A stretch of 63,823 nucleotides of DNA, counting the filler, from Lenisia limosa (Eukaryota; Protista; Breviatea), in NCBI GenBank assembly GCA_001655205.1. It is 12 parts of 12 records of this genome, joined end to end, with 100 filler letters (N's around TTAATTAATTAA, not from the genome) between each part and the next. Parts side by side here need not be neighbours in the genome. Positions count along the whole stretch, not along the records: positions 1 to 4,138 come from LPNZ01010890.1; positions 4,239 to 7,945 come from LPNZ01000166.1; positions 8,046 to 9,356 come from LPNZ01009296.1; positions 9,457 to 11,269 come from LPNZ01007447.1; positions 11,370 to 16,357 come from LPNZ01009706.1; positions 16,458 to 18,107 come from LPNZ01000933.1; positions 18,208 to 26,689 come from LPNZ01009574.1; positions 26,790 to 32,245 come from LPNZ01009817.1; 4 more parts are not named here. One strand, 5' to 3'. Under the pieces are notes generated by a model. The model made no database searches. It had not been told where the DNA came from and was given only the letters and a program-made list of their open reading frames with translations. A program made the translations under genes and the position numbers. Positions 519-59,163 of the stretch are shown here, one piece after another. Within the stretch, counting starts at the first letter, position 1; each line of letters begins with the position of its first letter.

Positions 519-3500
519 AGCTATATTATTGGATTTACTCTTCCCTTTATTTACCCATCAGATACAATGCCAAACGGGGCTGTCCGGTCGTCAGTGAGGG
601 AAATCCTTGCAGGTGAGGAAGAAATTGTCACTTTGATTGATTGAGAAGGAGGGAAATTTTTCTTTTTCATCAGAACCGCTGTTATTATTTTTTAAACTGT
701 TGCCAGGACTGCAGACATTTAATGAATCGCGTTTATTAGCAGCCAAGCTCCGCACCCCGAGATTCCACTCAATGGTTTGTTGGGCCCAATGGAAAAGTCG
801 AAATTAGTCAATCCGTCGTTCCCCAGGAGGAGGAGTTCTTTCTCACCTTCTTAGACCGTGCAGAACAGCAGCCCCATTGTTGCGTCGCCACTCAGGTACG
901 CAGCGGCTCATTTATATTGTTATTGGGTCAAAAGTTTTAGAAAGATTCTGTACACCCTTTTCCCCTCACCTTTTGTTATTCTGATATCTTCCTTATATCT
1001 TACAACTGCAGGCCATTTGAAACAATCACAGATTTTGACTATGACCACACCACAATTCCCTATGTAAGCCCTTTACATTAATGTCCATGTCCCTGCTGTT
1101 GATATCGCTGTACCTAGTTCAATAGAGAGTAAAAGTCAAAATAGGACCCCGATCATCCTCTGTATCGATATCGCGTTATCTGTGCTGCTGTGTTCAACTC
1201 TCTCATTTTGGCCACTTACCACCCAGCATGTGCGTGAATATGGCCTCCACGCTTGCTCCCTGGGTTTTGATGACCCTGATATTATCTTGTGGGTTATGAG
1301 TAATGAAACACCGTTGTGGTCTTTTCCGACATTATTCAATTTTGAAAATATTTCAAGACGTATCACAGTCGGTGTTCGTACTGTATGGGTGATGATCTTA
1401 TATAATATATTACAAATGAGATTACCGCGCGCCCCTTGTATTAAGTGGAGGTTGTTGTAAAAAACTATCTTTGATCCTCATCCGCTTGCTTCAGTGATGA
1501 TGAAGAAATCGAGGAAATCGACCTAATTGAGGACCTTCCTGCCCCCCAGTTGCTTTTCGCTGTAGGTGGCATGGAGAGATTGATTGTACTATTTGAATTA
1601 ATAAGAGAAACCTGGGGCTGTGAAAGAGTGAGACAAAAACATCTGATATAAACATCTTATATCATAGAATATATAATGTAGACCTGTTTGCCCCCTCTCC
1701 CCTCTGGGATGCGGTACTGCAAAAGCGACTGGTCTTGGCTTTATTTGTTTTGTTGTTATCAACCCTTGGGTGTTGTCAGCCAATATAATTGATAGGGCTT
1801 TTTTGTTTTATAATTCTTATTTATCTCCCCCCCCCCCCNNNNNNNNNNNNNNNNNNNNNNNNNNNNNNNNNNNNNNNNNNNNNNNNNNNNNNNNNNNNNN
1901 NNNNNNNNNNNNNNNNNNNNNNNNNNNNNNNNNNNNNNNNNNNNNTCCCCCCTCCTCCCAGCCTTCATTTATGCCGTCCTCACTCGAGGCCTCAGCACTT
2001 CGCGTACTTCTGATGTCCGCTACTGTGGCCGCACAGCTCTCAGGTCCGCTGAGTTCAAAATAGAATATTCGGCTGCTGAAGAGCTTCACTTTTCGCTTTC
2101 ATTATGATTTGCTCATTTTCACTTATTTACTTATTTTTCTGAGGGACATCTGACCATATCGGTCAAGTCAGAGTTTTCTGACTCTTGAGAAGTTATTCCT
2201 TTTTATAGCTGAAGAACCAGGTGGAGATAATGACAGTGACGGAATGTTGACAAAGGCACCAGGAGCATACTTCAGAAGGGCTATCGAGAACATCGATGTG
2301 AACCGGCTCATTTTGCAAGGGTATGAGGGCACGTCTGCTTCCTCCAGGATACATGCGTCTTATCTTCTTTCTGCATATCATATTTAATATATTGTGGCGT
2401 AGCTTTGCTGGTCGTCAGAATCGAAGAGGCTTTCAAATATTTCCTTTATCACCCCTTTGCAGTTCTCGATACCCAAGCATGGTCATACCGCCCTCGTGCT
2501 ATCTGAGGGAGGCGTATGAAGGACGTGTCGGTAAAATGGACCGAATCACTTTTGCGAATTACGCCAATAGGCAACAGGGTAGGGAGATTAAGTGTTGGAT
2601 TCATAACATTATTTGTCATAGGGTTTTCATTTTGCTACATCGTATGACATGGGCAACTTCACTTCAAGTTTCAGTTTAAACTCAATCCCATGCTTATTAC
2701 AATATGAATCCAGCCTCATCCGATGTAGAGCTCTATAGCGACGTATTTCCCAGGATACTTCTCGATTCTGAAGAACTTATTCTCTCATAGTACGCGGGTA
2801 ATGGACTTGGGATAAGGCTCATTAAAAGCCGTGAAAAAGGATAAAATGATCGGTGTATACGTTTGGCCTTTTATGTTGCTCTATCATTTCCATGCCAATA
2901 AGTCACCCCCCCCCCCGTCATTTAGTGATATGCGTTACTGCGGAAGNNNNNNNNNNNNNNNNNNNNNNNNNNNNNNNNNNNNNNNNNNNNNNNNNNNNNN
3001 NNNNNNNNNNNNNNNNNNNNNNNTTGTTTATTTTTTTCAACCCTTGTGTGTTTCGCCTATGTTTAGCTCGGGGCGTTGTTTGTTTGTTTTCTCAAAAAAA
3101 TTCATTTTACGATTAGTCTTTTCGCCAATATTCTTCATCGAAATTTCCTTCGATTTACTAACTCATTCCCCTCAGTGCCAGGAGGAACCCTTCTCGATGG
3201 GGCATGGACCGAACCACTATCGGCATGTCTGTGTCCAACTTAGCGCCAAATTCGCCTGCTGCAAGGGATAAGGTGTGGGGATAAGTTGGGGTCGGATAGG
3301 GGACGGGATTATTTGATGGCCCTTTTTAGCTGAAATTGGCAGAAAAAATCTGACAGTATTATTATATTCACTTCAAGATACTTTTTGATATTGATTGATA
3401 AGTTTACCCTCGAATTTTGCCCCATTTTCTAATTTTGTATTCTTTTGATGAACTGTTTTTTGAAATCATATTTTGCGCTTTTTTTTTTTTTTTTTTNNNN

Positions 3501-4022
3501 NNNNNNNNNNNNNNNNNNNNNNNNNNNNNNNNNNNNNNNNNNNNNNNNNNNNNNNNNNNNNNNNNNNNNNNNNNNNNNNNNNNNNNNNNNNNNNNNNNNN
3601 NNNNNNNNNNNNNNNNNNNNNNNNNNNNNNNNNNNNNNNNNNNNNNNNNNNNNNNNNNNNNNNNNNNNNNNNNNNNNNNNNNNNNNNNNNNNNNNNNNNN
3701 NNNNNNNNNNNNNNNNNNNNNNNNNNNNNNGTATGTATTATCTAGGAACTGACCCAAAATAGGAAACCATCTATTACTAATCTTAAAATATCACAATAAA
3801 CTAACATACACATTCAGAAGCTTCTATTACACTATATCATCGTAATTTGGCAGCTCTTCATCATCAGCTTGATGGTGAAAGGTGGGGAGAATTTCAGGTT
3901 TTGGAAAACCAGATAGGAATGTTTATCAAAGACGGCAAGGTGATTCACCACCTTTCCTTGAGGTACATCAATTCAAAAGATCCAGAAATGTATCCTTTTA
4001 TTGATGACGGCAATATAGTGGT
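186..4022 (+). CDS. Multi-exon gene, product unknown (partial; may be more than one gene)
   Basis: Series of AG/GT-bounded open exons, e.g. RLRKKLRRTPSEVISLEVEVKY (186-), AFIYAVLTRGLSTSRTSDVRYCGRTAL (1962-), AEEPGGDNDSDGMLTKAPGAYFRRAIENIDVNRLILQG (~2208-) and ARRNPSRWGMDRTTIGMSVSNLAP (3176-). No family recognised. Confidence 0.55.
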
Positions 4023-4138
4023 AATATCATGAGTGTTTTTAAATTTATTCTCAACCCAGCCGCCCACTGAGTTTTGGAGGCGCCGAGGGTTGTGGGCTGA
4101 CAGCTGCGTATGATGGTGGCTGTGGGAGGGGGGGGGGG

Positions 4139-4238: not shown

Positions 4239-4684
4239 TGTTGGGTTGTTAAGTGTTAAGTAATATAAGGTGTGTGTGGGATGAAACAAAAGAAGCCCGA
4301 ATCAACTCTGTTGGGTTGTTAAGTGTTAAGTAATATAAGGTGTGTGTGGGATGAAACAAAAGAAGCCCAAATCAACTCTTGGTAAAACATTAGAAGTACA
4401 CAAGGGTTTTAAACAACGACCAGTCCAGTCGCTTCTACACCACATCCCATCACTCAAAAATAAGCAGGATCTAGGTAATATTAAAACGACTTGTAGAATG
4501 ATTTTATTTCAGAGTTTCATTGAGATTTGTTAATCAATTATCACATGAGTGGATAAGAGGTATCAATTACTGCGTAAAAAATGGATAGTTCAGTTCACAC
4601 ATGTGAAAATGCCCCAAAAAGTGTGGTAGTATTCAATGTAGTTATTTAGACTTATACTTTATTATATCCCAATGTACGTATACA

Positions 4685-5543: not shown

Positions 5544-6630
5544 ATGAGCCTCACTGAAGCCCTATTTGATCCAGTATGTTAATACACGTTTTTTAGAAGC
5601 GGGATAGAAAGGTCTGGGTAATTAACGCCTAAATAGCTCCGCAAGTTCGCAGCAACGGTTTCGCATGATGCGAAGGATCTTGCGCTTGCAGTGAAGAAGC
5701 GTCCCGAGGCCTCTGCTGGAGGTAGGAAGGAAATTAGCATGCATGTCAATGAAATAAGATTAGGTTGTCATTTGAAAAGATCTTGGTGTCAGAGGTCAAC
5801 TTTGCCTCTTCGTTTCGTTTATGGTTAAAATATTTCAAGAATGATGGAGGGAAGAAGGCTGAAATATTATCAAAGAGACACTTGTTCAGCTAATACATAT
5901 GATAATGTAACTGATCTTTGTTTGTTTTGTTGTTTTCAGCCCTCGTGTGTTTTCCAAAATTTAACACAATACAGAGGACTTATCATGCATATATAGTAGT
6001 AGTTATATCACCACATCCTAAATTAATCCACAACAAATATCGGTATGTTGAGGGAGTCACTGATATGGAGAGATGAGGTTTTGGATGGGAGGGGGGTCTG
6101 TAATAGATTTAGTTTTGATTCCAAGAAAAAAGTCCGATTATTTTCGATAATTCTTCGATAAATGACGTTGTTTTATGTTTTATTTTTTGAAATGACACTC
6201 TCACCACCCTAGATTCTTCTTTAAACCTTGTGGACCTCAAAGAAAAGGTTCGTACTATACATGATATAATTTATGAAACAACTTTGTGAACTTCAAACAA
6301 AAGGCTCGTTGGGCATGATTTTTACACTCTGTATCATAAATACATACATAAGACATAGTAGATAGTATTTTGTTGTTTTTTTGTATTATGTTATATATAG
6401 TATAGTTAGACGATAAGTATATGATATGATGTATTACAGGACTTTGGGCAATAATTTGTTGAAGAAATGTATTGGCAAAATCGAAATTAAAGTATCTCCA
6501 TTGTACTATTTTAAAACGAATTGCACAGATTCCTTAATTTACTTTTGTTTTACTGTTGCAGGTCGAACACACTAAAGCAGAAATCGACAGCTTGACCCGA
6601 TACACAAATGGTGGGCTCTTGAAGACAGAT
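5544..6630 (+). CDS. Small coiled-coil protein, weakly SKA3-N-like (partial)
   Basis: Spliced MSLTEALFDP|LRKFAATVSHDAKDLALAVKKRPEASAG|..SLNLVDLKEKV..TLGNNLLKK|VEHTKAEIDSLTRY. Helical heptad pattern; the family call is weak. Confidence 0.4.
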
Positions 6631-6640
6631 GTATTATATC

Positions 6641-9701: not shown

Positions 9702-11203
9702 GGCTGTGGACAAGCTGTATATGGGCTTCAGCCAGTTCTGCCGCAACATCATGACCAAGGCTTCTATTCACATTTCAAACCTCCCTGGTATTACTGGTTA
9801 AATTATCGGGTCATTGCCTTACTATCCAAATATTACGCAATTCGGCTGAAAACACTTACCATATAAGGCAACTGGGCCCGCAACCTTGTCGACCAAATCT
9901 CAAACACTGACCTTTCCACCACTCGCCGCTCTGCTGGCCTCCCCTTCGCGTAAGCGGTAATAGTGTTGATTGTCGGCTTTTTTTTGTTTGCTTCATAAAA
10001 TCCTATGTTCCACGAGGCGGCTGCAGAAGCGACTGGCCGCTTTGTTTGTTTTGTNNNNNNNNNNNNNNNNNNNNNNNNNNNNNNNNNNNNNNNNNNNNNN
10101 NNNNNNNNNNNNNNNNNNNNNNNNNNNNNNNNNNNNNNNNNNNNNNNNNNNNNNNNNNNNNNNNNNNNNNNNNNNNNNNNNNNNNNNNNNNNNNNNNNNN
10201 NNNNNNNNNNNNNGTCTCTGCATTTTTTGTTGTTTGCTTCAAAAAAAAACAAACCTACCCTTGTCTGCGTTCAAATGTTGGAGTTTCAGAGTAATCGGAG
10301 CATGATCAGTACCTTTACGATAATATTCATCATTGAAACCATCTTCGTTCACCCCCCCCCCCNNNNNNNNNNNNNNNNNNNNNNNNNNNNNNNNNNNNNN
10401 NNNNNNNNNNNNNNNNNNNNNNNNNNNNNNNNNNNNNNNNNNNNNNNNNNNNNNNNNNNNNNNNNNNNNNNNNNNNNNNNNNNNNNNNNNNNNNNNNNNN
10501 NNNNNNNNNNNNNNNNNNNNNNNNNNCATTTTAGGCAGGGTCATCAGCACCCTGCTGCTTGTTGCCGCCAATACGGACCCGGATGAGCATCGTTCCGGTG
10601 GTGAGTGGGACAATCTTTGATCTCTTTCGGGCTTTTTGTATGCATACTGATAATTGATCTCTTTGTCATTTGATTGGATTCATATATTAGCCCCACAATT
10701 GAGCTTTTTCAATGAAAACAATGATCAATTTTCTCGAATATTGATGTTTTATCGGACTGTCTTGAACCAACGAAAATCCGTTATTGTCTCAGTATACTGT
10801 CATCTTACGTTGAGTTCTCTCATACCACCTCATTAACACTGTATGTAGTGCCTTACGTGAGGCGGCGCTTCAGAGGAAAACTCCAGCTGGCTGACCCTGA
10901 TTCAGTGGGGCATGGGGTAAATTGAGATGCCATCTTCTTGATACATTTATCATGTGTATACATGTATAGCTACACTGACCGCGATAAGTCCAGACACGGA
11001 TATTGAGCTTTATCTTTAATCAAATGTGTCAGGACTTATCGCGGTCACTGTCTATGTCTGAGGGATGGAGAAGATGAAGATAACAATATTAATGAGCGCC
11101 CTTGTGCCCCTCACGGTTTAGGCGTCCGGTCAATGGGGCTTCGACAACGGACACAAAATGTCTCTCGAGCCAACGTCCGAGGACAGATTCCCTGTTACCA
11201 ACA
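9702..11203 (+). CDS. THADA: THADA/Trm732 homologue, DUF2428 region (partial)
   Basis: AVDKLYMGFSQFCRNIM...GNWARNLVDQISNTDLSTTRRSAGLPF. TRRSAG(L/I)PF is the hallmark DUF2428 motif. Confidence 0.72.
10971..11052. mobile_element. Tc1/mariner-type MITE family D variant
   Basis: TA-CACTGACCGCGATAAGTCC...GGACTTATCGCGGTCACTG. Confidence 0.8.
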
Positions 11204-19417: not shown

Positions 19418-22400
19418 ATGTCGAAGCAACCAGCCACATGGCAGTCTACTCTCTCCTCCATTCTTGATGTAAGCATCTTCACATCTTTATGTGTTTTTCT
19501 ACTCGTTCTTTGAATCGGGTGTGTTTCCCTTGCTTTCCCAATCAATGGTCATCATGTTGCCTATTTTGACAACGTATTGATGCCCTGCAGCTGCAGTTTA
19601 TAATGTTTGATTCTAATCTTGAAGTATTATGCACATTCGATGGAGTATTTCCTCCCTTTTTTCCCCGGTTTAAAATGACTAGTTTTAGCGTTGGTTGCGT
19701 GTTTGTTGTTGCTTGTTTTGTTTTGTTTGTTTGGAGTTTCAGTTTATTCGTACCTTCACGCCAATATTCTTCATCAAAATTTCCTTCATTTCACCCCCCC
19801 CCCNNNNNNNNNNNNNNNNNNNNNNNNNNNNNNNNNNNNNNNNNNNNNNNNNNNNNNNNNNTCCCATGACTTTGTGACTTTGTAGCGAACACAGCAAACT
19901 CTGAATGATCGCGAGTCCTTTGTGCGTTATTCCAAACTGGCAGACGCAAGACGAGATGGTGAGATAGACAAAGGATGCAGAAAGTTGTGTGAACAGAATG
20001 GGGAGGCAAAGGGATTTGATATTTTAAACTTACTAACAAAAGTGGTTTTGGCTGGATGTTTACGTATAACTTTGTTGAGGGCCAGAATATTATAAATAAT
20101 ATCTAGGGAAACAAATAAATACATGAGATACCTTAAAACACAATATCGTAGACGCGTGTTATGCATGTTCCACTGTTTCTTGTCCTTATTAATCCAACGC
20201 CGGCATGTTGTGGCCATTAATCCCACCACAGCATATGTCATGGATACTACGGTACGTCAGCGCGAAAATGAGCAATTTAGCCGTTCCATGGTCAACCCTG
20301 ATAGCTCAAGAGTGGGGCTGTGCTTTTTTATCACACTGTTCACTTTTCATGCTGTAACCACTACATTATTATGTCATAAAAAACATGTTCAATCTCTTAC
20401 ATTGTGTCATATGCAAGACCACCAGCTGATAGAGTTTTTTGTTTCATCATTGGTAATATCATTCGACTTTTTTTGACTGACAGAAGCCTTAATAACAGCT
20501 CATACGAGGTTATTGCTCAACTTGACTTGTTATTTGGCCTTTTACTTTTCTCATTTCAACATTCTGTGCTTTCTTTGGACATCAAAGTAAATGCAGTTAT
20601 AAATTATCTATCTCTGATAAGCGTGGTGGATGGTGTGGACGGCTTCGGNNNNNNNNNNNNNNNNNNNNNNNNNNNNNNNNNNNNNNNNNNNNNNNNNNNN
20701 NNNNNNNNNNNNNNNNNNNNNNNNNNNNNNNNNNNAATAATTGACATATTAATTTTCCGGACCAAATTAAAGCCTTCACCTGAGCCACATAACAGCTTAG
20801 GTTGAAGGCCTCAAAAAGGACGTAGAGAATCTCTCAACAGACGTGCATAATATGGCTGAGTTCCTATCAACAACAATGCCTGTGCCTGCCCCTATCCACC
20901 ACCAGTCCTTCAACCCCCACCAAGGTTTCAATCCCGCTGCAACACAGTACAGGTATTGGGGATTTCCCCCAAGTCAACGGACATTTCTTATGATTCTGTG
21001 CAATTAATTGGGGAATTTTATGTAACAGATATGAGAACTCCACTTTAATTTCCAATTTCACCAAATCATTTTTGTTTCATTTGCCAATATTCTTTTTTCT
21101 TGTATCCTTCGCTTTATGTCAAAACCTTTTACTCACCCAGTGAACACCCCGAGNNNNNNNNNNNNNNNNNNNNNNNNNNNNNNNNNNNNNNNNNNNNNNN
21201 NNNNNNNNNNNNNNNNNNNNNNNNNNNNNNNNNNNNNNNNNNNNNNNNNNNNNNNNNNNNNNNNNNNNNNNNNNNNNNNNNNNNNNNNNNNNNNNNNNNN
21301 NNNNNNNNNNNNNNNNNNNNNNNNNATGATGTTGGTTACCCACTCCTCACCCCTCCCCTCATTATTTTTCCTCCATGCTCAAGAACCAGACTAACTAAAT
21401 ACATCTTGCATATATTATAATATCTGCTGGAGAGGCCACAGAAACCTGTGTGTACATAGATAAGGCAAATGATTGGGTGAAATAATATTATACTAAAATC
21501 CAACATCTCTTATAGCATGGTGTGGACGGCTTCAGTCAGATACAAGCTTGTTTTATTTTGCTACACAGTATATAATATTTTTATTGTAGTATATACTCAA
21601 TATAGACATATACTAAATAAGTTATATATGACATGTATAGTTAGGCCCAGTAATAACATCTTCAAGGTCGCGTATAGCGGATGCTTCCCCTGGTACAACA
21701 TTTCTGTCAAGAACAGCCCTTGGACAGAACACCCCACGTTACCAGCCTGATGGTTAGTGGAGACCCCAGAATTATTTTAATCTATTGAAATATTCAACAA
21801 TGGGAGGACAAATCATCATATTTTAAAGGATCTGAATGCTCTCCGAATCCTATGCAATTCTGTGCTCTCAGCTTCTTATCATCGAATCCTATGCAACTCT
21901 GTGCTCTCAGCTTCTTATCTGCAGCTCGTGGGGGCTCCAATCGAGACCAACCCTCTTTCGTCAATACCACCCCCAGAGAAGCCTTTAATACGGCGACAAC
22001 TCTCCCGCCAGAGGTGCGTTTGGTTCGATATTGAAAAATACTAAAATACGGCGTAATACATACATGTATATATCGGGGTGGTGGGGGGATATAAAAACTG
22101 CAAACGATCAATAATTAGACCAAATTGGGAGTCCATCGTCAAAATGTTGTTTGTTGTTTTTTACTCCTATTACGCCCCCCCCCCCTCCGCCGCCGCCCCG
22201 CCCTATGAATTTCCCATTTTACTCCTCTCCGNNNNNNNNNNNNNNNNNNNNNNNNNNNNNNNNNNNNNNNNNNNNNNNNNNNNNNNNNTTTGAGGAGCGT
22301 TTAGTGGCCTCAGCAGCCTCGGCAGGCCGGACCGCAGCCATATCCGCTGTGGACGAGACCGTTTCGGCCCAAACCCGGGCGTCAAACCGGGCGCTCCAGG

Positions 22401-25179: not shown

Positions 25180-26500
25180 GTTAAAAAAAATCCGACTTTT
25201 TAACGGTCACAACCCAATCAATGCTTAGAGCCGTTCCAAGCATACTTTTGGCTTTCTTCTCTAGACATTGTGATAGACTTGGCGAATAAGGTGGCCGTTG
25301 GCCAATAATAATTCCTTTCAAGATGTGTTTAGGTATAGTTGAAGAGGAATAAGGATATTGGAAGACCTTGAAAGGAAAAACCACCAAGAAAACCCACTCC
25401 GTATAAAAAGATGCATGAATAGAGACAGTAATATTCAAAAAGACACTATAAAACAATAAAATGGAAAATAAAACACTTATAAAACAGAAACACGAGGAAT
25501 AGGGGCTGGCCAATTGAATCCTGGGGCAGCAGCAAAGTGGAAAGATTCCTCCCCGACCTACAAATGTGTGGACGCTCTCCGAGATGAGGTTTGAAATGTG
25601 CAGGGCTGACTTTTGATGGAAGGGTGTCTTCAACTGGTGTGAGCCTTTCTGTGGTTCAGCTTATTTAAATTTGGCTCGCAGTGAAAAGATACCATGGAAA
25701 CAATTCCCTTGCCAATTTAAACCCAATGCAACGTTTTTTTAAAAAATCTTCCCATAAGAAATTTGGAATGCTTTCAAAGGTAAAAACAATCGAAAACTGA
25801 CTGATAAAAAGAGACATCTGAAAGCACAGCCTTCTTCAGAGGATTGGAAAAGTCTTGATTCCTTCTGAGCCATAACACGTCTGAAGAAAGACAAACGCGA
25901 GGTTTTGGTCGATACTTTCTGAATAGGGTTAGAAATTAATTTAGTGAAAAAGCAGCTTACCACTAGTGACAGCTTCCTGGTGTCCTCGAATGAATACATT
26001 AATGTATTCAACAAAAAAACAGTTTGTCAAATATCGAGAGGAACAACTTTACTTTGAATAGAGATATGAATACTTAAGTAATTATACTCCAAGGCGACAG
26101 TAATGTTTTCCAAACGGAGCGAGTCCGGATTGATCGCAAGCCCATCATCCCCATCAGGAGGGTTAGTTAGCAGAGTTATCAAATCGTCGTGAGGGTCTAC
26201 AATGAGGAGATCATCAATGAACCGAAATGCGTTGTGAAAAGAAGAGAAAAGAAGAGATTAACGGAGATTCAGGCGGAAGTGATTCAATAAAGTCCCGTTC
26301 AAAAGAATAAAGGCAAATGTTAGCCAGCAGAGGAGCTGTGTTGGTTGGTTCCCATTAGAATGCCAATTTTCTGATGAAACACAAGAGACCCGTTTTGGAC
26401 CACAGTATTTTAAACCACAAACTTCAAAAACCCTAAAATCTGATAAAGTGAGAAAAGATCTTTTGACGTGTGTTAACGGTATGCCTCGTATCCGTTTTTT
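25180..26500 (-). mobile_element. Decayed Penelope-like retroelement (RT pseudogene)
   Basis: After removing a 4-bp (26341-26350) and a 10-bp (26236-26255) duplication it reads FHQKIGILMGTNTAPLLANICLYSFERDF...SFHNAFRFIDDLL. The thumb motif FPFKVFQYPYSSSTIPKHILKGIIIGQ lies at ~25300-25380. In-frame TAA at ~26410; no introns. Confidence 0.85.
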
Positions 26501-36049: not shown

Positions 36050-38165
36050 CATTCTGAACAATTAGCATTCCATAGCCGCAAGAAATTGGTGGGGTTAGGG
36101 GGGGGGGGTAAAATTGGAAAATTTATAAAACAGAAGAGCCCAAATCAACTCTGCTGTTGGGTCACAACACAAAAGGGTTGATAACAAAATAAAAACATAA
36201 AAAAACAACAAAGCCCAGACCGGTCGCTTCTGCAGCAACACCGCATCCCATCACTCCCCGTGTAAAAACTGTGAAACTAACAATTAGGTAAACATACATT
36301 GAAAGTGATGTCTGTCGCCTTGCTAGAGTTGGAAATGACCCTCAGTTCAGCCATTTCTCTTGACCTACTGCATTCAAGCTTGAAGTAACTGGAGGGGATA
36401 AAACAGAGAAACAGAAGAAAAAAACTAGAGCTGCACTTCCAAGAAGGACTAAACAATCGAACTAATAATTAATGGGTCATCTGGAACTGAAAGTGAAGCT
36501 CTCAAACAGACCCCAAATTTAACACACTTGAAGTTGACACAGGGTTGGAAAACAACAACAAAAACACACACACAAGACCAAAGGATAAGATGGAACGCAT
36601 AAACACACACACAGACCATATGCGACAATAGTATCTTTTTAGAGACNNNNNNNNNNNNNNNNNNNNNNNNNNNNNNNNNNNNNNNNNNNNNNNNNNNNNN
36701 NNNNNNNNNNNNNNNCGACCTTCGGATCTGCAGATCCTGAGGCGGGATAGACCACTCAAATGTCATCTAAAACCTCGTCATTATGGTGAAAATAAAGACT
36801 GAATATCACAAAAAAACCTGCTTCTCGCAAGAAATACACAGTTTCTCTCGTAGGGTAGATAAGAAGTTGACAACATCATAATATACTAAAATATTGTCAC
36901 TGGCCCGTCATTTCCATCAAACCGCCCTTTGCCCATATCATTAGGATACGACATACAGTGACCGGGACAAGTCTTGACCGATTTTCCTTGGGAAATCAAA
37001 TAGCAAATCGGACAAGACTTATCCCAGTCACATACCGCTCTTACCCATAATTCTTCTGGGATGCCCCGCAACCAGCACCCCATCCAACCTCTCCAGGGTG
37101 CCCCGCGAGCTCGTAGTAGTAATGAACGGTCCCCTTGACATCAATCTACAAAGGTCATATCTAGAGCTTCCCTTCGGTCCCAAAAAAAGACCGAATCTCT
37201 CGAAAAATCCTCTATAACTATCAATATTTTAACGGGCTTTTTCGGACCGCAGGGAAGCCCTAGTCATATATCAGTAGTACTTCCCCTTGACATCAATCTA
37301 TTAGTACCTAGTCTCCTTTATACTTTATGATGGATCCTTTTGGTCCAAAAGAGGTCTTGTGAAAAGATAACCGGAAAAACAAAAAAAAAAAAAAAGGAAA
37401 TTTGGAGTAACAGATAAAATGAATAGTTTGGGGGAGTAAAATAGATAAAATGGATATGTGGGAGCAATAGCAGAAAGATTGTATCTCTTTTATTTAACAA
37501 AGCCTTCAAGCTGCCTCAAAAACATAACTTTATCGAATAACAGCAAAATCAAGAATAAAAAAAAAACAGCAAACCGCAAGGAATTCAAGTCGAAAGACTG
37601 AGTTTCTCGATAAAACCTCGAAAACTAAAGATATCTTACGGTCTTTTCCGGACCGAAGGGAAGCCCCATTCACCGCCCACCTCATCCGCAGGACCCAGCT
37701 GGTGGACCTCTTCAAAAGTCGCGTCTAGGCTGGTGTCTTGTCTTGTGCCTTCATCAATGTTAGTGAGGGGTGCTGAGGGCTGCGGCTGGCTGTCATCGTC
37801 ATCAGTGAAGTTGAGAAAGTCCATTCTGGGGGGGGGGGAGTAAATTGGAAAATTTATGAAAACAAAAAAAGCCCAAAATAAACTCTGTTGGCTGACAAAC
37901 ACACGGGTTGAATANNNNNNNNNNNNNNNNNNNNNNNNNNNNNNNNNNNNNNNNNNNNNNNNNNNNNNNNNNNNNNNNNNNNNNNNNNNNNNNNNNNNNN
38001 NNNNNNNNNNNNNNNNNNNNNNNNNNNNNNNNNNNNNNNNNNNNNNNNNNNNNNNNNNNNNNNNNNNNNNNNNNNNNNNNNNNNNNNNNNNNNNNNNNNN
38101 NNNNNNNNGATTCCTCCAAACCTTCTTCTTTCCGGTTTCTTGACTTCTTCTCCCTCACCGTCTGT
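36050..38165 (-). CDS. Multi-exon gene, unknown product
   Basis: Exons MDFLNFTDDDDSQPQPSAP..., IDVKGTVHYYYELAGHPGEVGWGAGCG, GKGRFDGNDGP|MTFEWSIPPQDLQ and YFKLECSRSREMAELRV. Confidence 0.5.
36096..36260 (-). repeat. Intronic dispersed repeat family A (most complete copy, ~160 bp)
   Basis: GGAGTGATGGGATGCGGT..CTGCAGAAGCGAC..GGGCTTTGTT..CAACCC..GTGTTG..CCAACAG..AGTTGATTTGGGCT..TAAATTTTCCAATTTTAC(C)n. Other copies: 1705-1838+, 4270-4455-, 9597-9701+, 10021-10054+, 22508-22610+, 23245-23312+, 24100-24208+, 34125-34193-, 37826-37914-, 48214-48280-, 52959-53056+, 58612-58653+, 58764-58890+. Confidence 0.88.
36954..37034. mobile_element. Tc1/mariner-type MITE family D
   Basis: TA-CAGTGACCGGGACAAGTCTTGACCGATTT...AAATCGGACAAGACTTATCCCAGTCACA-TA. 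Confidence 0.85.
37162..37262. mobile_element. MITE family C, subfamily C2
   Basis: TAGAGCTTCCCTTCGGTCC...GGACCGCAGGGAAGCCCTA with TSD GTCATATC/GTCATATA. Another half copy lies at ~37575-37668. Confidence 0.88.
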
Positions 38166-38359: not shown

Positions 38360-40290
38360 ATGAGTGGAAGGTTGTTTAAGAAGGCCCCTCCGGAATTTGT
38401 GCGGTCACCAAGTGCACCAATCTTACCTGACCAGTCAATGTTCAACTTCAAATTGGTAGGGTTCCCGTTCTGTCTTATTGCAAGGGAACACATTCAGAGT
38501 TCAATGTTGTTGCTGTGTTCGAGGGATTATTTGACTCCACAGGACCAGAAACATTCCAAGGTGAGAGGTTATCATATTCTGATTAATTTTTTTTTTTTTT
38601 TTAGCATCCTACTTTTCTCCTTTGCTCTAATTCCAGGTTTTCTCCTTTTAAGTCAAATGCGGGCTTTTGTTCAATCCGGAATCAACATCGGAATGTAAGT
38701 GGTGCTTTTCAAGAGTATTATTTTGGATGTAACTGACATAATAGGAACTTGGCAAGGGTCTTGAAGAATTCTCTCAGGAACCCACTACTTCCACTTGCGT
38801 TGCGAGAAGATATTACCTACACTCTTAAATTTGTGAGTTAACTATTTTGGGGACTTTAGATATCAACACTGATGTTTATACAGATTTCGAAAAAGCAAAC
38901 AGTTGGAAAGGTGTACTCATTCCCTCGGGTAACGAAAGAAGATCTTTTTGGACTGCTTGCAATGGGTGAAGGTTGGTTTTATTGTAACGAATCTTACCTT
39001 TTGAGACCCGGTTTCGTTAACATTGATATTGTGGCTCATATCAACAAATTTGGAAAGCTCACCTATGAAGACTCCTCAAAAACCACTGGCAAAAAAAGTG
39101 GATAGGGGGAGGGTAAGATTTATTTTTGCTATTCACGGAGTAGGAACTTCTTGAAGCAATTTTTGATGCCGGCCTAAGTATGTCAAGTATAAATGGAGCA
39201 ATATCTCCTGAGGTTGCTTCATTGGACCAACTCTTTGAAATGGTTTGCATTCTAAAACAAACGATATTACAGGGTAATATTTAATAATAATAAAAAATAA
39301 TAATAATAATAAAATACAGACGTATCAATATTTAAACATTTTAGATTGAGGTCAAAGCAGCAGAATTTTCTGTTTTAAAAGATTTTATCACTGATAATTT
39401 CAGGCAATGGAACAATGTCTGGTGCCATCCCCTAATGTTGCCTTGCGTTTTGATGAGACGAGAACTGAGAAAGTAGGGTTTAAAAGCAGGATTCCAACCC
39501 ATAAATTGGGTCGGATAAACCACAAATAGCGCCAAAAAAACCGAGCGTAACCTGCGTGATTTTTATTTACTGTTATAAAAGAAGTTTTTTGCAAGAGAGC
39601 AAATGTTGTGATATCATACTGACGAAAATATTCTTTCGGATATCCGTGACAATTTTCTGGAGTGACGCCCTGCTTTGAGAGTAATATTAGTGGAATTAGG
39701 AAAAAAAAAAAAAAAANNNNNNNNNNNNNNNNNNNNNNNNNNNNNNNNNNNNNNNNNNNNNNNNNNNNNNNNNNNGTAATTTTTTCAAAAATTAACAATA
39801 ATTTAATCGCTCTATTAGGAATTCAAAAATAAGAAAAAGTCTTTGATAATTTTATAGTCAATCGAACAACGCTTGAAACCTGATGAAAATATTGTGTTGT
39901 CTTTCGATAAGAAACAAATGGAGAAGAACAATGTGACGGTTGGTTAATCAATGCCTTTTATATTTTAGCCAACTTGTTATAATTGTACTCCTGAAGCGAA
40001 TTTATGCCTTGCACTCAGTTTCATAGACTCAATTCACCAAGTTAAAGGAGGTTGCTGAGGTTTCCTTGAAATTTGATGGGCAGTTTTATAAGTTTGGATA
40101 ATCAGGTTATTTTAAACATGAAAAGGAAATTGAACTGATATTCGTTATTCAGTTCGTGATGAGTTCTTTGATGCTAATATTCTCCCTTCGTTTTACTCCA
40201 CAGATACCATATTACAAACGGTGAAAAGGGTGTGCTCAACATCATGCGGGTACTTTGAAATACAACTGTTGATGAACTATGTGTCCTCCT
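38360..40290 (+). CDS. Multi-exon gene, unknown product
   Basis: Spliceable chain MSGRLFKKAPPEFVRSP...|EFNVVAVFEGLFDSTGPETFQ|GFLLLSQMRAFVQSGINIGM|NLARVLKNSLRNPLLPLAL...|ISKKQTVGKVYSFPRVTKEDLFGLL... Confidence 0.55.
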
Positions 40291-45677: not shown

Positions 45678-45703
45678 TTATAAAAATGTCTATGATATGT
45701 ATG

Positions 45704-47568: not shown

Positions 47569-50500
47569 TCATACCTTTGGTGGGGCAACAGGTGATACAT
47601 TGACCTTGACAAGATTAGGCTCAACCTTCTCCACCTTCTTCACAACCTTCTTTGCAGCTTTCTTTTCGACCTAAAAGGGGTCAGTAATTCTCTTTGGAGC
47701 TTGAGAAACGATTTAAAGACTGTGACTGATAATACTCTTACTTCTGGTCCTATTATACATACATCTAACCATAAACTGGAGCTGTTTGAACAACTCTTGA
47801 AAACGATAATTACCAGGATTTAAGCTAATTCAAAAGTAGGTTCCCGAGATCAACACAGATCACACCTTTTTCGCAGCAACAATAGCGGCTTCATTGAAGG
47901 GCTCATGTAGGGGTGTCACGGATCCGCAGTCCTCGGGAATGCTGTCGAAAATCGCACTGGATGTATGAGAAAATAAAAAACAGAAAACAAAAGAAGGCAC
48001 CGAGACTCCCCACATATTTCTCTTTTTTTTTTTTTTTTTTTNNNNNNNNNNNNNNNNNNNNNNNNNNNNNNNNNNNNNNNNNNNNNNNNNNNNNNNNNNN
48101 NNNNNNNNNNNNNNNNNNNNNNNNNNNNNNNNNNNNNNNNNNNNNNNNNNNNNNNNNNNNNNNNNNNNAAACTACTCTGGTAAAACCGACCAAAAGCTGC
48201 CAAAAAGAGGCAACTTAAAAAGGAGGGGAGGGGGAGTAAAATGTGACAATTTATGAAACAAAAAAAAAATCTCAAATCGGCAAAAAGGTGGTTCCGGGAT
48301 ATGCTCCGAGGGTAGTGATACCAAACTATTTACAACAGCACTCAACCTTGCTGTAAGCCAGTAGGTGGAGCTATAAGTCTCAGAAACAACCCATGGTGAC
48401 ATCCAAGACGTTCGAAAAATGCCCTCCGCTGCTAGCAAAACGAGGCTCTACTAATTCATGGAAAAGGTCACCACAAAAGGGGATTATGAATAACGTCTGA
48501 CAGTTTTACGAGAGTGAATACCTCAGCAGGAACCATGACGAAAAATGGCCTTGTTTTGTAATTAACCAGAACCGGCTTGCACCCACTCAAAAATATTTTA
48601 CTANNNNNNNNNNNNNNNNNNNNNNNNNNNNNNNNNNNNNNNNNNNNNNNNNNNNNNNNNNNNNNNNNNNNNNNNNNNNNNNNNNNNNNNNNNNNNNNNN
48701 NNNNNNNNNNNNNNNNNNNNNATACAGCCTCCAGGAACTCCATGGTGGCTTCTGCTCTGGGTCAAAATGGCCGTCATAGATTTGGCATATTGCGACTGAG
48801 AATAGCGACAAGCATCCGGAAAAGCTCTAGCGATATGTGTTACTATTACGCGAATTCAAACAGCATTCTGCATACCCCCACTCCCCGCAGCTATATCAGC
48901 ATAGCGGCATACCTCTGAAATAGTCAGGCATATTCTTCACAAGCTCAGCGACGCTAGTTTCCTCCTTCAATCGCTTGGCTTCAGCCATCGACACACCGGT
49001 CCAAGGTAAACGCTGAGTATTAGGACTAGGAATTCTAGGATTTAACTAGCGCTTCACTTCGGTTCGAAAAATACGGGTGAAATATCGATAGATTTCGAGG
49101 ATTTATCGAGAAATTCAGCCATTTTCGAACCGAAGTGAAGCCCAAGATATAACATTAGAACCCGATTATGGTGGGGTATGCAATAGCGCACTATCCTTTC
49201 AGGAAATATTGTTTTCATTGAAATCCAGACGTGGGACTCCCATCAACCACATCTACGCTTACCCCCCCCCCACCTCCAGACAGAAGAACACAAAGCAATA
49301 GGCGAGGGAAATGAGGTCATCACGGCGTGAGAGCACTGAATCGTTGAGAGGCAAAATGGAATGAAAGAGATGATATTGAAAAGCACGAGCAAACCCACAC
49401 ACACACATCCAGAACCTTACTCCCCCTTCCCACTATCGGCAGTATGGACGTTGAGGGAGATGAAGGAGGGAGTGCCTTGCATCTTCTGCTTCTGGATCTT
49501 ATGCGCTCCGTTGATGGTCCTGGAATGTCAGAAAGAGTTCTGTGTAGCTGTTGGCAAATTACCCCTCCCACTTGAATCGGTCCACACAACCAAAGTCGAT
49601 AATGCGCAAATTGGAGACATCAGTAGAGCTGAAGCCGTTAAAATAGACCAAGCCACAACCATGTGGGCTCAAGAACAGCAAAGTATGCTTCCATACCGCC
49701 CTTTTGAAGACAATTGATGTGGACACAATCAAGGTTAAAGAAACTTCAAGATGGTTGAAAGAGAGAAAAAAGAACACCAAATTATTTAACTATCTATCGG
49801 CTATCCAAACCATTGTGTCCCAGTTAGAAAGATAAAAGGGATGACAAGTAAGAGGATATGCCAACTTATAAGTAAAGAGGAAGTTTGCGGGCTTGACGTC
49901 GGAATGAACGTGGTCGGTGCTGTGGATAAACTCAACAAGGCGAATCTGAGGGGGGGTGGTCAACATTTTGGTTGAAAAACATAATCATAATATTGAATAT
50001 TGGGGTTGGGCCATTTGTAGCTTAATTGTTTCAAAGTCGAAATGCATATTCTCCTGTTGTTGTTNNNNNNNNNNNNNNNNNNNNNNNNNNNNNNNNNNNN
50101 NNNNNNNNNNNNNNNNNNNNNNNNNNNNNNNNNNNNNNNNNNNNNNNNNNNNNNNNNNAAAGTTTCCAAATCTTTTCCAAGAAGCTCATTGATCTGAAAG
50201 ATCAGGTTTATTTGAGTGTTAAACAAAGCGAGGATTTGAAGATCCTAATAGAGAATACGTTGTAATGAAATAGCGCTTCACATAACCGTTTGTACCGAAA
50301 TTTGACTATTCTGAACTATGGAGATTTGACATCCCCCCAAGACCAAAACAACAACAACCCCCCACCAGGCAATAGAACTTTTGGGTCTGATCCGCACCTC
50401 TCTGGATGAATCGGGGGACAAATTGGTCTGCTAAGTAAAGGGGCGACAAATTGGTATGTTAAGTAAAGGGGCGACAAATTGGTCTGTTAAATAAAGAGGC

Positions 50501-52109: not shown

Positions 52110-55100
52110 TATTGCCCAAAAGTATTGGAGCTGCTTGATATAAAGCCAAAGAATCAGAACTATTGTGAAGATATTCTGCCCCATGTACGAATTTAGTCAC
52201 CCTTCAGGGGGCACAGTCAGGTGAACTCTCTGGCAGTGGTGCGGTATCCCAACGAAAATGACGCCATTGTCGCCGCCGCGCTTTTGGCCAACTCCTCGTT
52301 TGCTACAGCCAAAGGTGGGCCTCTCTTTCTTCTTCACGGTCTTGCTTTATTGCATGGATAAGAAGACAACATGAAATATCATATGCTTATTTACCATACA
52401 AACTAGTTTTTGTGTTGCACTCAAATGCGCCCGATTTCTCTTTATATATGTGCACAGAGTTGTAAGGCAAATGATTGGGTGAATTAATATTATNNNNNNN
52501 NNNTTTGTGTCAATTTCTGACACTATAGTACCAAAACCAGCCGTCCTCGTGGAGTTTGCCTTTCACCAGTACTCTGAGAAGTCCGCAAAGAAAGACGCTC
52601 GCGCAACCAACATGGAGGATGGTGGGGGGGGGGGGTTGANNNNNNNNNNNNNNNNNNNNNNNNNNNNNNNNNNNNNNNNNNNNNNNNNNNNNNNNNNNNN
52701 NNNNNNNNNNNNNNNNNNNNNNNNNNNNNNNNNNNNNNNNNNNNNNNNNNNNNNNNNNNNNNNNNNNNNATACTATATTGTATTCTGGACATCTTGCAAT
52801 AACACCCACAGACCCTCGATTCAAGGCTTTCTGTGAAAAGTACGAAGCGGGTGAGCCAACAGCACCCGATACCCAACTCAACATCCAGCAGGCCAAGACT
52901 TTCGAAGGAAAGGTGGGGGAGAGGGGAGTGCTTTTATTGAATTATATAAGGCATATTCCTGGAGTGATGGGATGCGGTACTACAGAAGCGACTGCCCAGG
53001 CTTTGTTTGTTTTGTTGTCATCAACTCGTGTGTTGTCAATTTTCCAAAAATTACTCGCATACTCGCATACTGACCCCTAAGACCGGTAATGTCACTGCTC
53101 TGATCGCAGCCGTACTCTCCAATGAAAACAAGAAGAAGGTGCGGGGTGGGGGGTCATGAGTTGTATTGACTGTCTCGATTCGTTGATTCGTTGATTCTGA
53201 CCTCTTTAGAAGCTGAAGGAGAAGAAGAAGAAGAAAGCAAAGGCCTTCAAGAAGAGAGAAGCCGCGGCCAAAAACGTCCCTCCCAGTGACGGCAAAAAGA
53301 AGCCCAGCAGAAAACCCACTACCAAGGTATGGTGGTATATTGTGCTGGGTGGAGGGCATATGGTATTTGTAGTGAAAGAGTTTGGGCTTCCCCTCGTTCC
53401 AAAAAAGACTGAATTTCTCGTAAATCCGATAATTATCGATATTTTATGGTGTTTTTCGGATTGTAAGGAAGCTTTATAATGCTAAAATAACAGAGTTTAT
53501 TCCTGTTTTTTTTATAAATAATCCATATTCACCCCTCCCCAGGAACCCGAAACCCCCCGGGAGCTGACAAGTGCCGAGCTCTGGGCGATGGGCGGTACCC
53601 CCCAGGAAATCCAGAAGGCCAAGCAACACAATGCGTCTCTTACACAAAATCGCGCAACACCTGATAAGACCAGGCCAAAGCCCAAAACGTCACCACAGGC
53701 AAAACCGCCACAAACGGAACCGAAGGTTCTGGTGCGCCCCCCAGGTTTNNNNNNNNNNNNNNNNNNNNNNNNNNNNNNNNNNNNNNNNNNNNNNNNNNNN
53801 NNNNNNNNNNNNNNNNNNNNNNNNNNNNNNNNNNNNNNNNTAACACGTCTTTCTTTTCCAAGCCCTCGAGCTTTACGCCGAATTCAGCCGCCGCTGCCCC
53901 CAGCCCACAGTACTCACCCCAGGTATGCTGCCTGCTGGGGCTTCCCGTCGTACGAATAATAAAATGGGCTTTGAATTTATGGACATTAAAACTGTATTAG
54001 TCAAGACAGAGCACATAATGTCATATAGTGTATATGTATGATAAGCAGGTATGATCCTTGTGTTGTAATTATCCGCTATTATCAATATAAATATCCATAA
54101 ATATCTCTGACCATTCTTTAGGACTCAAAAACATCGAAAGCAGTGGGGACGCCGTACCACAGAGCCCCGGAGGTGGGGGGGGGGGNNNNNNNNNNNNNNN
54201 NNNNNNNNNNNNNNNNNNNNNNNNNNNNNNNNNNNNNNNNNNNNNNNNNNNNNNNNNNNNNNNNNNNNNNNNNNNNNNNNNNNNNNNNNNNNNNNNNNNN
54301 NNNNNNNNNNNNNNNNNNNNNNNNNNNNNNNNNNNNNNNNNNNNNNNNNNNNNNNNNNNNNNNNNNNNNNNNNNNNNNNNNNNNNNNNNNNNNNNNNNNN
54401 NNNNNNNNNNNNNNNNNNNNNNNNNNNNNNNNNNNNNNNNNNNCCGATCCGAGCCGAAGGTATATCAGCAGCAGCCCTACGCGCAACCCGACCAATATTC
54501 GGCATCGCCTGTCGGGTCCCCGTTTATGTCACAACCATCACAACCGCGGCAGTATCAGCAGAAACCAGCAGGACGCTACACCAAGTCCCAGCAGTACCCC
54601 CAGCAACCTTATGCTCAGCCAAGTCCAAACAACGCTTTTGCCAACACCCAGTACTCCGCCCCTCCCCCACAGTTCTCCCCTGGTGGGTGGATTTCTTGCT
54701 TTTTGACACTCATTTGTACTTTTCCAAAGTACTACCCCGCCCAATTCACAAATAAGCAAATCGCTTAGGGCTTCACTTCGGTTCGAAAGAAGACTGAAAT
54801 TTTCGATAAATCCTCGATAACTTTCGATAATTTACCCGGTCTTTTTCTTCCCAAAGTGAAGCCCAACATATTATTGATAATTAAAGATGCTCTGCCCTCA
54901 CCCCCCCAGGTTACACACCCCAAACCAGTCAGCCCCCACAAAACCCCCAAATGGAGATGGTTTGTCAAGGCCTGTATTTTATGGCGGTACAGCTTTATTG
55001 TCTTGTTTATTACGACTTTAGGCCGCATCAGCACCGCATTCTGAANNNNNNNNNNNNNNNNNNNNNNNNNNNNNNNNNNNNNNNNNNNNNNNNNNNNNNN

Positions 55101-58335: not shown

Positions 58336-58653
58336 TGCCACTCGTGAGAGCCTGTGGCGAAGAATAATTTAAAGAATCCTGGGGTGTATTGTATAATGGC
58401 CTCACTATAGTTATTCAAAATGATGATTTCCCAAATACTAAGAAGTGTGTGAGTGGAGATGGGGGGGGGGGGGNNNNNNNNNNNNNNNNNNNNNNNNNNN
58501 NNNNNNNNNNNNNNNNNTTAATTAATTAANNNNNNNNNNNNNNNNNNNNNNNNNNNNNNNNNNNNNNNNNNNNAATATTCATCATCGAAATTTCCTTCGT
58601 TTTACTGTGCTGCAGAAGTAATATAAATTTTCCAATTTTACTCCCTCCCCTAG

Positions 58654-59163
58654 TCTGGCGCAAGCATAGCTGTCCCCATAGTCGCTTCAAGTAACAACGC
58701 CATCGCCCACAGGTATTGTCTCCCACCCCCAGCAATATTGTTTTCCCCATTAATAGTACTGCCCGGGATGCGGTACTGCTGGCATGGGCTTTGTTTTGTT
58801 GTTATCAACCCTCGTGTTTTGTCAGCCAACAGTGTTGATTTTGGGCTTTTTTTTTGTTTCAAAAATTGTCAAGATTTTACTCCTCACCCTCCATCATTCT
58901 CAAGATGCAACCATAGCCCCCACATACAAAACCCTCTCCCATCAATATTGAGTTGATTTTGGGCTTTTGTTTTTTTTCAAAAATTTTCCCATTTGACTTC
59001 TTCCAACCAATATGACTCTTCAGTGCTGTAATGCACTTCCGCACAATTGCTGAAGATCCCTGGATCTCTGACGTCGATCATGCTGTTGCTACCCAGGTCA
59101 TGCTTTATGGAGAGAACTCACACCTGTCTCATCTGACAGGCCCCCAGGGGCACCTTGGTCTAA
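58654..59163 (+). CDS. 3' exons of an unknown gene
   Basis: SGASIAVPIVASSNNAIAH|AVMHFRTIAEDPWISDVDHAVATQ|APRGTLV*. Confidence 0.4.

What the first reader, a model, noticed from the sequence alone, without database searches (positions are those of the whole stretch)
1705..58890. Strand-biased repeat family A that builds intron 3' ends (Introner-like system)
Seen: about 14 copies of a ~160-bp repeat on at least 8 unlinked scaffolds. All lie in inferred introns and all are in the same sense as the surrounding inferred gene. In several, the repeat's 3' end (AATTTTCCAATTTTACT-(C)n) runs straight into the acceptor AG: 9701 (THADA), 24208, 34125(-), 37826(-), 48214(-) and 58653. The 5' GGGGAGT and 3' ACTCCCC ends could be short inverted termini. 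Established: Introners are non-autonomous elements that create or remodel introns en masse in some algae, fungi and other eukaryotes. Inference: this is an uncharacterised element family that supplies the pyrimidine tract and acceptor, either generating introns or being retained only where it strengthens a 3' splice site. The MITEs here show no such positional behaviour.
Basis: partly seen in the sequence, partly recalled or inferred. Interest (0 to 1): 0.82.

Follow-up and report, generated by a model that had tools for sequence, protein, structure and literature searches.

The report
Retroelement scraps rebuilding intron acceptor ends
A ~145-base repeat recurs in this intron-rich eukaryote's predicted introns, facing the gene's direction and often forming the last bases before the splice acceptor, but it never starts where the intron starts, so it is likely a scrap of a Penelope-type retroelement landing on C-runs of existing introns rather than an intron-maker.

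Summary
The repeat is real: 20 profile hits on 8 of 12 scaffolds, none in shuffles. All are sense to their modelled host (10 of 10 genes, p=0.002). In 5 of 11 judgeable copies the 3' end abuts the acceptor; RNA confirms 37826 directly and 34125 indirectly.

It fails the Introner test. No copy's 5' start lies within 10 nt of a donor (intact starts at 41-139 nt), and the 5' ends of host introns are unrelated. It has no hairpin, and the proposed GGGGAGT terminus is in one copy only.

A similar family (B) sits where the 3' UTR of a broken Penelope-like RT is expected (26472-25298, minus); a relative has an N-terminal GIY-YIG, the Naiad/Chlamys layout. In Chlamydomonas such elements make ~128-bp intronic insertions at (C)n runs (PMC9977147). 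Here C-runs mark acceptors and G-runs mark donors.

Best reading: short C-run-targeted retro-insertions into existing introns; survivors supply the branch-like TTTAC and pyrimidine tract. The A-to-retroelement link is indirect (A-B homology p about 0.02-0.09). Secondary insertion ~0.85; Penelope-type ~0.5.

The parts
36101..36256 (-). Family A, most complete copy; mid-intron, starts 41 nt after the modelled donor, not at an acceptor
   Evidence: inside one DNA contig (table 8, record 6)
37826..37912 (-). Family A 3' half with C-run and acceptor AG; exon starts at 37825
   Evidence: RNA contig piece 37681-37825 (table 8)
34125..34193 (-). Family A 3' end with C-run and acceptor AG
   Evidence: exon of 88-94 nt inferred from RNA depth
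9583..9701 (+). Family A, 5'-truncated, ending at acceptor of a THADA exon
   Evidence: next exon hits PF10350
24099..24208 (+). Family A ending at predicted acceptor; 5' part in a gap
   Evidence: no RNA cover
58610..58653 (+). Internally deleted A piece behind a B end, ending at predicted acceptor
   Evidence: ORF model only
1705..1838 (+). Family A, near full length, C-rich tract on both sides; acceptor 1961 beyond a 107-N gap
52959..53056 (+). Family A with internal deletion; starts 49 nt after donor, host keeps its own CTGAC before AG 53081; 8-nt one-mismatch flanking repeat
58765..58999 (+). Two A copies in one intron (58765-58883, 58940-58999), ending 140 and 24 nt before the AG
22508..22605 (+). 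5'-truncated A directly behind a B end, followed by a D MITE
23246..23317 (+). A 5' half only, 63 nt after donor, 122 nt before acceptor
9953..10054 (+). A 3' piece followed head-to-tail by an A 5' piece
48230..48281 (-). A 3' end in kinase gene; acceptor not established
4280..4455 (-). A copy lacking its 3' end plus a duplicated piece at a scaffold end
5910..5955 (+). A middle fragment, 257 nt from acceptor
29459..29579 (-). A-like middle with B-like 3' end, ending at predicted acceptor
3033..3175 (+). A-like middle (weak) with B 3' end, at predicted acceptor
62524..62623 (+). Decayed A 3' end with C-run followed by an A 5' start; no host intron assignable
   Evidence: (iteration 1)
24927..25089 (-). 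Family B copy at the expected 3' UTR position of the Penelope-like element; its C-run reads as the G-run of donor 24926 of the host gene
25298..26472 (-). Broken, 5'-truncated Penelope-like reverse transcriptase (frameshifts, stops, ~580-nt unmatched stretch inside)
40145..40203 (+). Family B 3' end forming an RNA-supported acceptor
   Evidence: (record 2)
19677..19803 (+). Family B copy ending in a C-run at a gap
23758..23883 (+). Family B copy ending at predicted acceptor; the same intron has a G-run donor

Best explanation
Family A is a dispersed ~145-bp repeat nested inside predicted introns that it does not span, and it is likely the short 3'-terminal or non-autonomous form of a Penelope-like retroelement of the Naiad/Chlamys type that inserts at (C)n runs. 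Step 1 (shown): copies lie inside introns, share a 3' end followed by a C-rich run, vary at the 5' end and occur head-to-tail. Step 2 (shown): C-runs here lie just before acceptors and G-runs just after donors. Step 3 (inferred): an element that joins its 3' end to a C-run lands in sense orientation at acceptors and in antisense orientation at donors; the one long insertion (RT plus family B) does the latter. Step 4 (inferred): sense copies survive because their T-rich body suits the T-rich introns and their end restores a branch-like TTTAC plus pyrimidines before the host AG. Antisense copies would be removed because they are A-rich and carry an acceptor-like TCACTCCAG. The result is rebuilt 3' splice sites, not new introns.
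For: Element start never at donor; host intron 5' ends unrelated. 5 of 11 judgeable 3' ends within 12 nt of the AG against 1.2 expected (p=0.003), and 0 of 12 MITEs (p=0.014). No hairpin (z -0.9 to +1.0; MITE D -9.9), no tRNA, no Rfam family. Head-to-tail copies in the window, in an RNA contig (table 5) and in a DNA contig (table 5c). In 62 introns without detected A/B: 7 have a C-run before the acceptor, 8 a G-run after the donor, 0 the reverse. RT at 26472-25298: relative P0001 53% identical; telomerase-like and GIY-YIG/RT neighbours; relative P0007 has GIY-YIG at 107-162 ahead of RT at 638-869. 4 of 6 relatives end 67-80 residues after the last matched column, which puts the ORF end near 25100-25060, where B-shared sequence begins (25089). 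B copies start at variable positions (2-102) and 8 of 9 reach position 134-141. Precedent: PMC9977147 (median 128-bp, all intronic, (C)n target) and PMC8557442 (5' truncation, head-to-tail non-autonomous copies, no discernible TSD).
Against: No A copy is joined to RT sequence. A-B homology is weak: A profile on extended B p=0.07-0.09, terminal 30 nt p=0.024, pairwise p=0.003-0.03 under a looser null. The B-RT link rests on one locus and could be a chance neighbour. A has a defined 5' start in several copies, and 10 of 20 hits stop well short of the 3' end (one at a gap, one continuing after an internal deletion). P0007's GIY-YIG score is below Pfam's cut-off. Target availability is symmetric, so the near-absence of antisense copies needs selection, which I did not test; G-run donors that run into gaps (23526, 52640, 54186) could hide such copies. 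The C-run may be the element's tail: one 'free' C-run acceptor (53542) looks like a decayed A end. A's TTTAC adenosine lies at -14 to -19, beyond the -8 to -12 peak of other introns, and TTAC is not enriched there.
Confidence: 0.5

Rival explanations
1. A is a non-autonomous DNA transposon with very short terminal inverted repeats (GGAGTGA ... TTACTCC). It inserts broadly and is kept in sense orientation near acceptors by selection alone, since its right end resembles a 3' splice site.
For: 6-of-7 complementarity between the ends; defined 5' start in several copies; an 8-nt one-mismatch repeat flanks the 52959 copy and, offset by 5 nt, the 22508 copy. The genome has active-looking MITEs with 7-8-nt TSDs.
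Against: No hairpin. No flanking repeat of 8 nt in 3 of 5 copies tested. Frequent 5' truncation and head-to-tail arrays. It does not explain why the similarly behaving family B adjoins an RT.
Confidence: 0.2
2. A is an old Introner family that created these introns; the 5' parts have since diverged or been overwritten by other insertions.
For: Strict sense orientation and acceptor-abutting ends; copies are old (median 76% identity). Three 5' ends are hidden in gaps. An internal GT exists near A's start. Donor G content and acceptor C content correlate weakly (rho 0.23, p=0.048).
Against: Intact 5' starts lie 41-139 nt inside introns behind unrelated sequence. The internal GT scores in the lowest 8% of donors, and the in-frame extension it needs at 52913-52963 scores as non-coding. 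For the RNA-confirmed intron the upstream exon fits at 38159-38241, well before the repeat (inferred from depth). Several introns hold two copies or only a middle piece.
Confidence: 0.1
3. A spreads by another route: a SINE or LINE-dependent tail, a Helitron-like element, or spliceosome-linked reverse splicing of intron RNA at existing 3' splice sites followed by reverse transcription.
For: Sense-only orientation and a constant 3' end would follow directly from a splicing-coupled route. A pieces occur in 8-10 polyA RNA contigs from other loci.
Against: No tRNA or Rfam head. No 3' hairpin. Several copies end 24-140 nt before the AG with the host's own branch-like motif retained. Left flanks do not end in a consistent AG.
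Confidence: 0.17
4. The pattern is an assembly artefact at homopolymer gaps.
For: Many internal gaps abut C- or G-runs or lie inside copies; one copy is duplicated at a scaffold end.
Against: Single-copy-depth DNA contigs cross the exon-repeat junctions, and RNA confirms the acceptor. Copies are only 56-91% identical to each other.
Confidence: 0.03

Closest known systems
Chlamys/Naiad Penelope-like elements and their non-autonomous partners (e.g. Chlamys-9_cRei / Chlamys-N4_cRei; PMC8557442, PMC9977147)
   Same: Short insertions of about 130-150 bp, intronic, 3' end at a (C)n run, 5' truncation, head-to-tail copies, no clear TSD, no Rfam hammerhead. An RT whose relative has the N-terminal GIY-YIG layout is in the window.
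   Different: Here the C-runs are part of 3' splice sites, so insertions overwrite the branch-point/pyrimidine zone and are almost all sense; the passages I read describe neither. A itself is not physically linked to the RT.
Introners (PMC9860276, PMC12130899)
   Same: Repeated intronic sequence in sense orientation that can carry 3' splice-site signals.
   Different: Introners match out to both intron ends and create introns. A matches at most at the 3' end, the pattern those papers filter out as secondary insertion.
Intronic Alu/L1 orientation bias in mammals (PMC3088655)
   Same: Selection shapes orientation near exons; antisense Alus carry cryptic acceptors and are depleted near exons.
   Different: Mammalian elements are depleted next to acceptors; A and B are enriched there.
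MITEs (families D and E in this window)
   Same: Short, non-coding, high-copy, intronic.
   Different: D folds as a long hairpin (z -9.9), has 7-8-nt TSDs in 3 of 6 copies tested, mixed orientation (6 sense, 3 antisense) and never enters the last 20 nt of an intron.

Membership tests
Introner | Similarity between introns begins within 10 intronic bases of the 5' end | tested here: not met
   0 of 16 intronic hits has the element's start there; intact starts at 41, 49, 52, 63, 139 nt; 5' ends p=0.20. One 3'-half piece begins 3 nt from a donor. Three 5' ends are in gaps.
Introner | Similarity reaches the 3' end | tested here: met
   Met in 5 of 11 judgeable copies; 3' ends of host introns alike, p=0.001.
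Introner | Intron absent at the same position in orthologues or strains | not testable with these tools
   No genome held; the metagenome scan gave only two chance bacterial matches.
Introner | TSD across the exon junction | not tested
   Only the element's own flanks were searched; most abutting copies lack a secure donor.
Naiad/Chlamys Penelope-like element | Telomerase-related RT | tested here: met
   For the element at 26472-25298 via close relative P0001; not for A itself.
Naiad/Chlamys Penelope-like element | N-terminal GIY-YIG with RT at the C-terminus; DKA-type motif | tested here: inconclusive
   The window copy is 5'-truncated. Relative P0007 shows the order at a sub-threshold score; DKA in P0004 and P0007.
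Naiad/Chlamys Penelope-like element | Short copies share the 3' end of an autonomous family | tested here: inconclusive
   B sits at the expected 3' UTR in one locus; A-B similarity p=0.02-0.09 under the stricter tests.
Naiad/Chlamys Penelope-like element | 5' truncation and head-to-tail partial tandems | tested here: met
   Variable starts for A and B; tandems at 9953-10054 and 62524-62623 and in contigs. Many A hits also lack the 3' end.
Naiad/Chlamys Penelope-like element | Insertion at (C)n or (CA)n with no clear TSD | tested here: inconclusive
   13 C-runs of 5 or more abut A/B ends, but target versus tail needs empty sites.
MITE | Terminal inverted repeats forming a hairpin | tested here: not met
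   z -0.9 to +1.0 for 5 A copies; only a 6-of-7 terminal match.
MITE | Fixed-length TSD | tested here: inconclusive
   8-nt one-mismatch repeats in 2 of 5 copies, one of them offset.
SINE or snoRNA-derived retroposon | tRNA- or ncRNA-derived head | tested here: not met
   No tRNA; no Rfam match over any A copy at gathering score or E up to 5.

The most novel reading that the evidence does not exclude
A C-run-seeking Penelope-like family has rewritten the 3' splice sites of this genome on a large scale. Thousands of acceptors use a retroelement-supplied branch point and pyrimidine tract, each insertion leaves a fresh C-run that attracts the next, and this cycle shaped the C-rich acceptors and G-rich donors seen throughout. 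It would be a splice-site-remodelling parasite distinct from Introners, and perhaps one step short of one.
Probability: 0.25. Interest if true: 0.7.

Novelty: new variant of a known kind. Interest (0 to 1): 0.45.

Why it matters
In mammals, insertions next to splice acceptors are purged (PMC3088655). Here two repeat families pile up exactly there, and at two RNA-supported acceptors (37826 for A, 40203 for B) the intron's last bases are repeat-derived. If this holds genome-wide, a retroelement can become harmless by replacing the splice signals it disrupts. That is a route of intron-sequence turnover which Introner surveys filter out by design, and a plausible intermediate towards intron-generating elements. 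As a claim of a new Introner it is not supported.

Tried and rejected
Whole-genome mapping: no genome is held. RNA test of scaffold 7 (acceptor 24208, donor 24926): the gene is not covered; only repeat-matching contigs from other loci were laid, which says nothing for or against. Metagenome scan with an A motif: 2 hits, both chance 28-nt matches in bacterial-looking coding DNA. Rfam and tRNA: nothing over A; weak miRNA hits are MITE hairpins. Structure in A, B or C: none. Idea that G-run donors are mirror-image remnants of A ends: 3 of 10 against 10 of 81, p=0.15, rejected. A's internal GT as donor: weak and not coding-like upstream; a 29-nt intron plus 14-nt micro-exon before it at 36297-36255 cannot be excluded by depth. 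C-family homology to A: not significant; one negative-score match. Single-exon protein searches were mostly too short: Pfam named only THADA, LRR, RagA and kinase among 62 exons; PDB gave nothing useful; one homologue search was empty. The labels UPF3, prefoldin-4, IFT88, USO1 and vanin are recalled, not from a call, and the kinase is not shown to be CK1. Pfam did not recognise the six RT frame pieces; the representative search found one same-family protein; the atlas gave nothing for the thumb piece. Three look-ups of earlier findings were empty. A paper search for the GIPMG motif found 0.
Full report
Setting. The window is 12 short scaffolds joined by a linker, from an intron-dense eukaryote; no whole genome is held. 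One polyA RNA run (X1) and one run holding all sampled words (X2), from one study, are available as contigs; X2 may be the source of the assembly. I modelled genes with a self-trained exon finder and by hand and kept 78 of 79 candidate introns as GT-AG. One of them had a mis-set donor until; its acceptor end lies by a gap and was left out of the acceptor counts. Most models rest on reading frames only.

The repeat is real. An iterated profile of 144 positions gives 20 hits at E<0.01 on 8 of 12 scaffolds and none in 10 shuffles or the reversed window; copies are 56-91% identical, median 76%. Four further terminal pieces (about 22205, 55165, 58610, 62524) were found by motif. Summed contig depth at 37841 is about 36,000 against 26-40 for single-copy contigs, which suggests copies in the order of a thousand, though the tool warns this is not a copy number. 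Single-copy-depth DNA contigs cross the junctions at 34125 and 37826, so these are not scaffolding artefacts.

Orientation and position. 16 of 20 hits are inside modelled introns, all sense; the other 4 are sense to the flanking gene. By host gene that is 10 of 10 (p=0.002), with 3 strands anchored by RNA or Pfam. Of 11 copies whose 3' end could be judged, 5 end within 12 nt of the AG, against 1.2 expected under uniform placement (p=0.003) and 0 of 12 MITEs (p=0.014; 11 MITEs, one placed by eye). I left out 48230 (acceptor unverified), 22226 (gap) and 62600 (no gene); the test is partly circular where acceptors were predicted. RNA fixes one case: a contig piece covers 37681-37825 and stops at the AG. 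Binned depth implies an 88-94-nt exon behind 34125, where 93 nt is predicted. A family-B end forms the RNA-supported acceptor at 40203. The gene holding 24208 is not in the RNA. 48214 is doubtful.

It is not an Introner. PMC9860276 (parts 1-2 of 7 and passages read) and PMC12130899 (passages) require similarity out to both intron ends and discard secondary insertions. A's intact starts lie 41, 49, 52, 63 and 139 nt after the donor, and none of 16 intronic hits has its start within 10 nt. The first 34 nt of 13 host introns are unrelated (p=0.20) while their last 37 nt are alike (12 introns, p=0.001). Some introns hold two copies, a half copy, or A behind B. The proposed terminal repeat reduces to a 6-of-7 match, there is no hairpin, and TSD-like repeats appear in 2 of 5 copies.

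The splice-site context. In 59 introns without A or B, a TNAC motif has its A at -7 to -22 in 39 (18 expected, p=0.002), peaking at -9/-10. In 62 such introns, 7 end in a C-run and 8 begin with a G-run, with none the other way round. Repeat-masked intron interiors are T-rich on the sense strand in 49 of 60 (skew 0.12); A and B have skews near 0.4, MITE D 0.02. Where A abuts the AG, its terminal TTTAC or TTCAC is the only such motif nearby, but it sits at -14 to -19 and TTAC is not enriched elsewhere, so its use as branch point is inferred.

A likely source. Family B (9 hits) behaves like A: T-rich, ending in a similar motif plus C-run, and sense wherever a host could be placed, except once (5 of 5 in modelled introns). 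That copy (25089-24927, minus) follows a broken RT in the same orientation. The RT's relative P0001 is 53% identical over the searched frame and groups with telomerase RTs and GIY-YIG/RT proteins. Among 6 longer relatives, P0007 has a sub-threshold GIY-YIG ahead of its RT. A profile of these maps to 26472-25298, and 4 of 6 end 67-80 residues beyond the last matched column, so the ORF would end where B-shared sequence begins. B is therefore likely the 3' UTR of a Naiad/Chlamys-type Penelope-like element, and its C-run coincides with the G-run of the host donor at 24926. PMC8557442 (passages and section 9) describes 5' truncation, head-to-tail non-autonomous copies and (C)n targeting for Chlamys. 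PMC9977147 (passages) reports de novo insertions of median 128 bp, all intronic, tracking (C)n. A matches this in size, tandem habit and 3' context. Its own link is indirect: no copy is joined to RT, and homology to B is borderline (p=0.024; p=0.07-0.09).

Mechanism, with status. Shown: nesting, sense bias, 3' enrichment, polarised C- and G-runs, an RT-plus-B insertion at a G-run donor. Inferred: C-run targeting, selection against antisense copies, use of the repeat's motif as branch point, and A's membership of this clade. Because G-run donors are as common as C-run acceptors, targeting alone does not explain the bias; selection is needed, and three G-run donors run into gaps that could hide antisense copies. 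PMC3088655 (passages) gives the mammalian contrast: elements are depleted beside acceptors, and antisense Alus with cryptic acceptors are selected against. PMC11282704 (passages) and PMC10288648 (abstract and outline) added nothing decisive. No supplements were read; the species tables of the Introner papers might list this organism.

Novelty. Three searches of the held library (the last found 0 papers holding all of Penelope-like, intron, splice site, polypyrimidine) showed no description of a repeat family that systematically forms 3' splice sites of existing introns; the library is incomplete. The element class is known; the splice-site-rebuilding pattern is a variant of it. Verdict: observation largely right, Introner reading not supported, secondary insertion about 0.85, Penelope-type origin about 0.5, interest 0.45.

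Noticed in passing
window 38456-38484, 39939-39968, 40299-40325, 40446-40474 (+): Four RNA-confirmed GT-AG introns of only 27-30 nt in one transcript, beside introns of 100-500 nt elsewhere; the transcript's modelled frame has stops.
   Followed up: partly
whole window: Branch-like TNAC is tightly placed 8-12 nt from the intron end in many introns; donor position +5 is G in 66 of 77.
   Followed up: yes
e.g. 23511, 27908(-), 49273(-), 52622, 52913, 54173: Donors followed directly by G-runs, mirroring C-run acceptors; intron 27486-27908 has imperfect complementary ends. Many assembly gaps start at such runs.
   Followed up: partly
window 25857-25916 and 26630-26689: Identical 60-bp inverted repeat, one arm inside the unmatched stretch of the RT region, the other at the scaffold end. 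It could be an inverted truncated copy as described for Penelope-like elements, another element, or an artefact.
   Followed up: no
9041-9166(-), 20608-20649, 21440-21579, 52449-52494, 61101-61200, 26505-26570(-): Family C, a third dispersed ~140-bp repeat without hairpin; sense where a host is apparent; two weak fragments abut the 5' end of the RT piece.
   Followed up: partly
21 copies, e.g. 62396-62488, 22624-22709, 37166-37259: Family D, a very abundant palindromic MITE with 7-8-nt TSDs in some copies; family E (5 copies) and a single hairpin at 33553-33645 are further MITE-like repeats. D often adjoins A ends in DNA contigs.
   Followed up: partly
window 60770-61091 and 62134-62455: About 300-bp direct repeat (99%) ending in a D MITE on both sides of a ~1-kb minus-strand gene.
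   Followed up: no
window 50408-50624: Tandem array of 23-28-nt units inside a kinase intron.
   Followed up: no
window 40406-40448 (-): Weak A-like match (E about 0.01 in one iteration), antisense and inside an RNA-covered exon; not counted as a copy.
   Followed up: no
window 34380-34660 (+): Short exon-like pieces on the opposite strand inside a long intron of the RNA-supported minus-strand gene, with no RNA cover.
   Followed up: no
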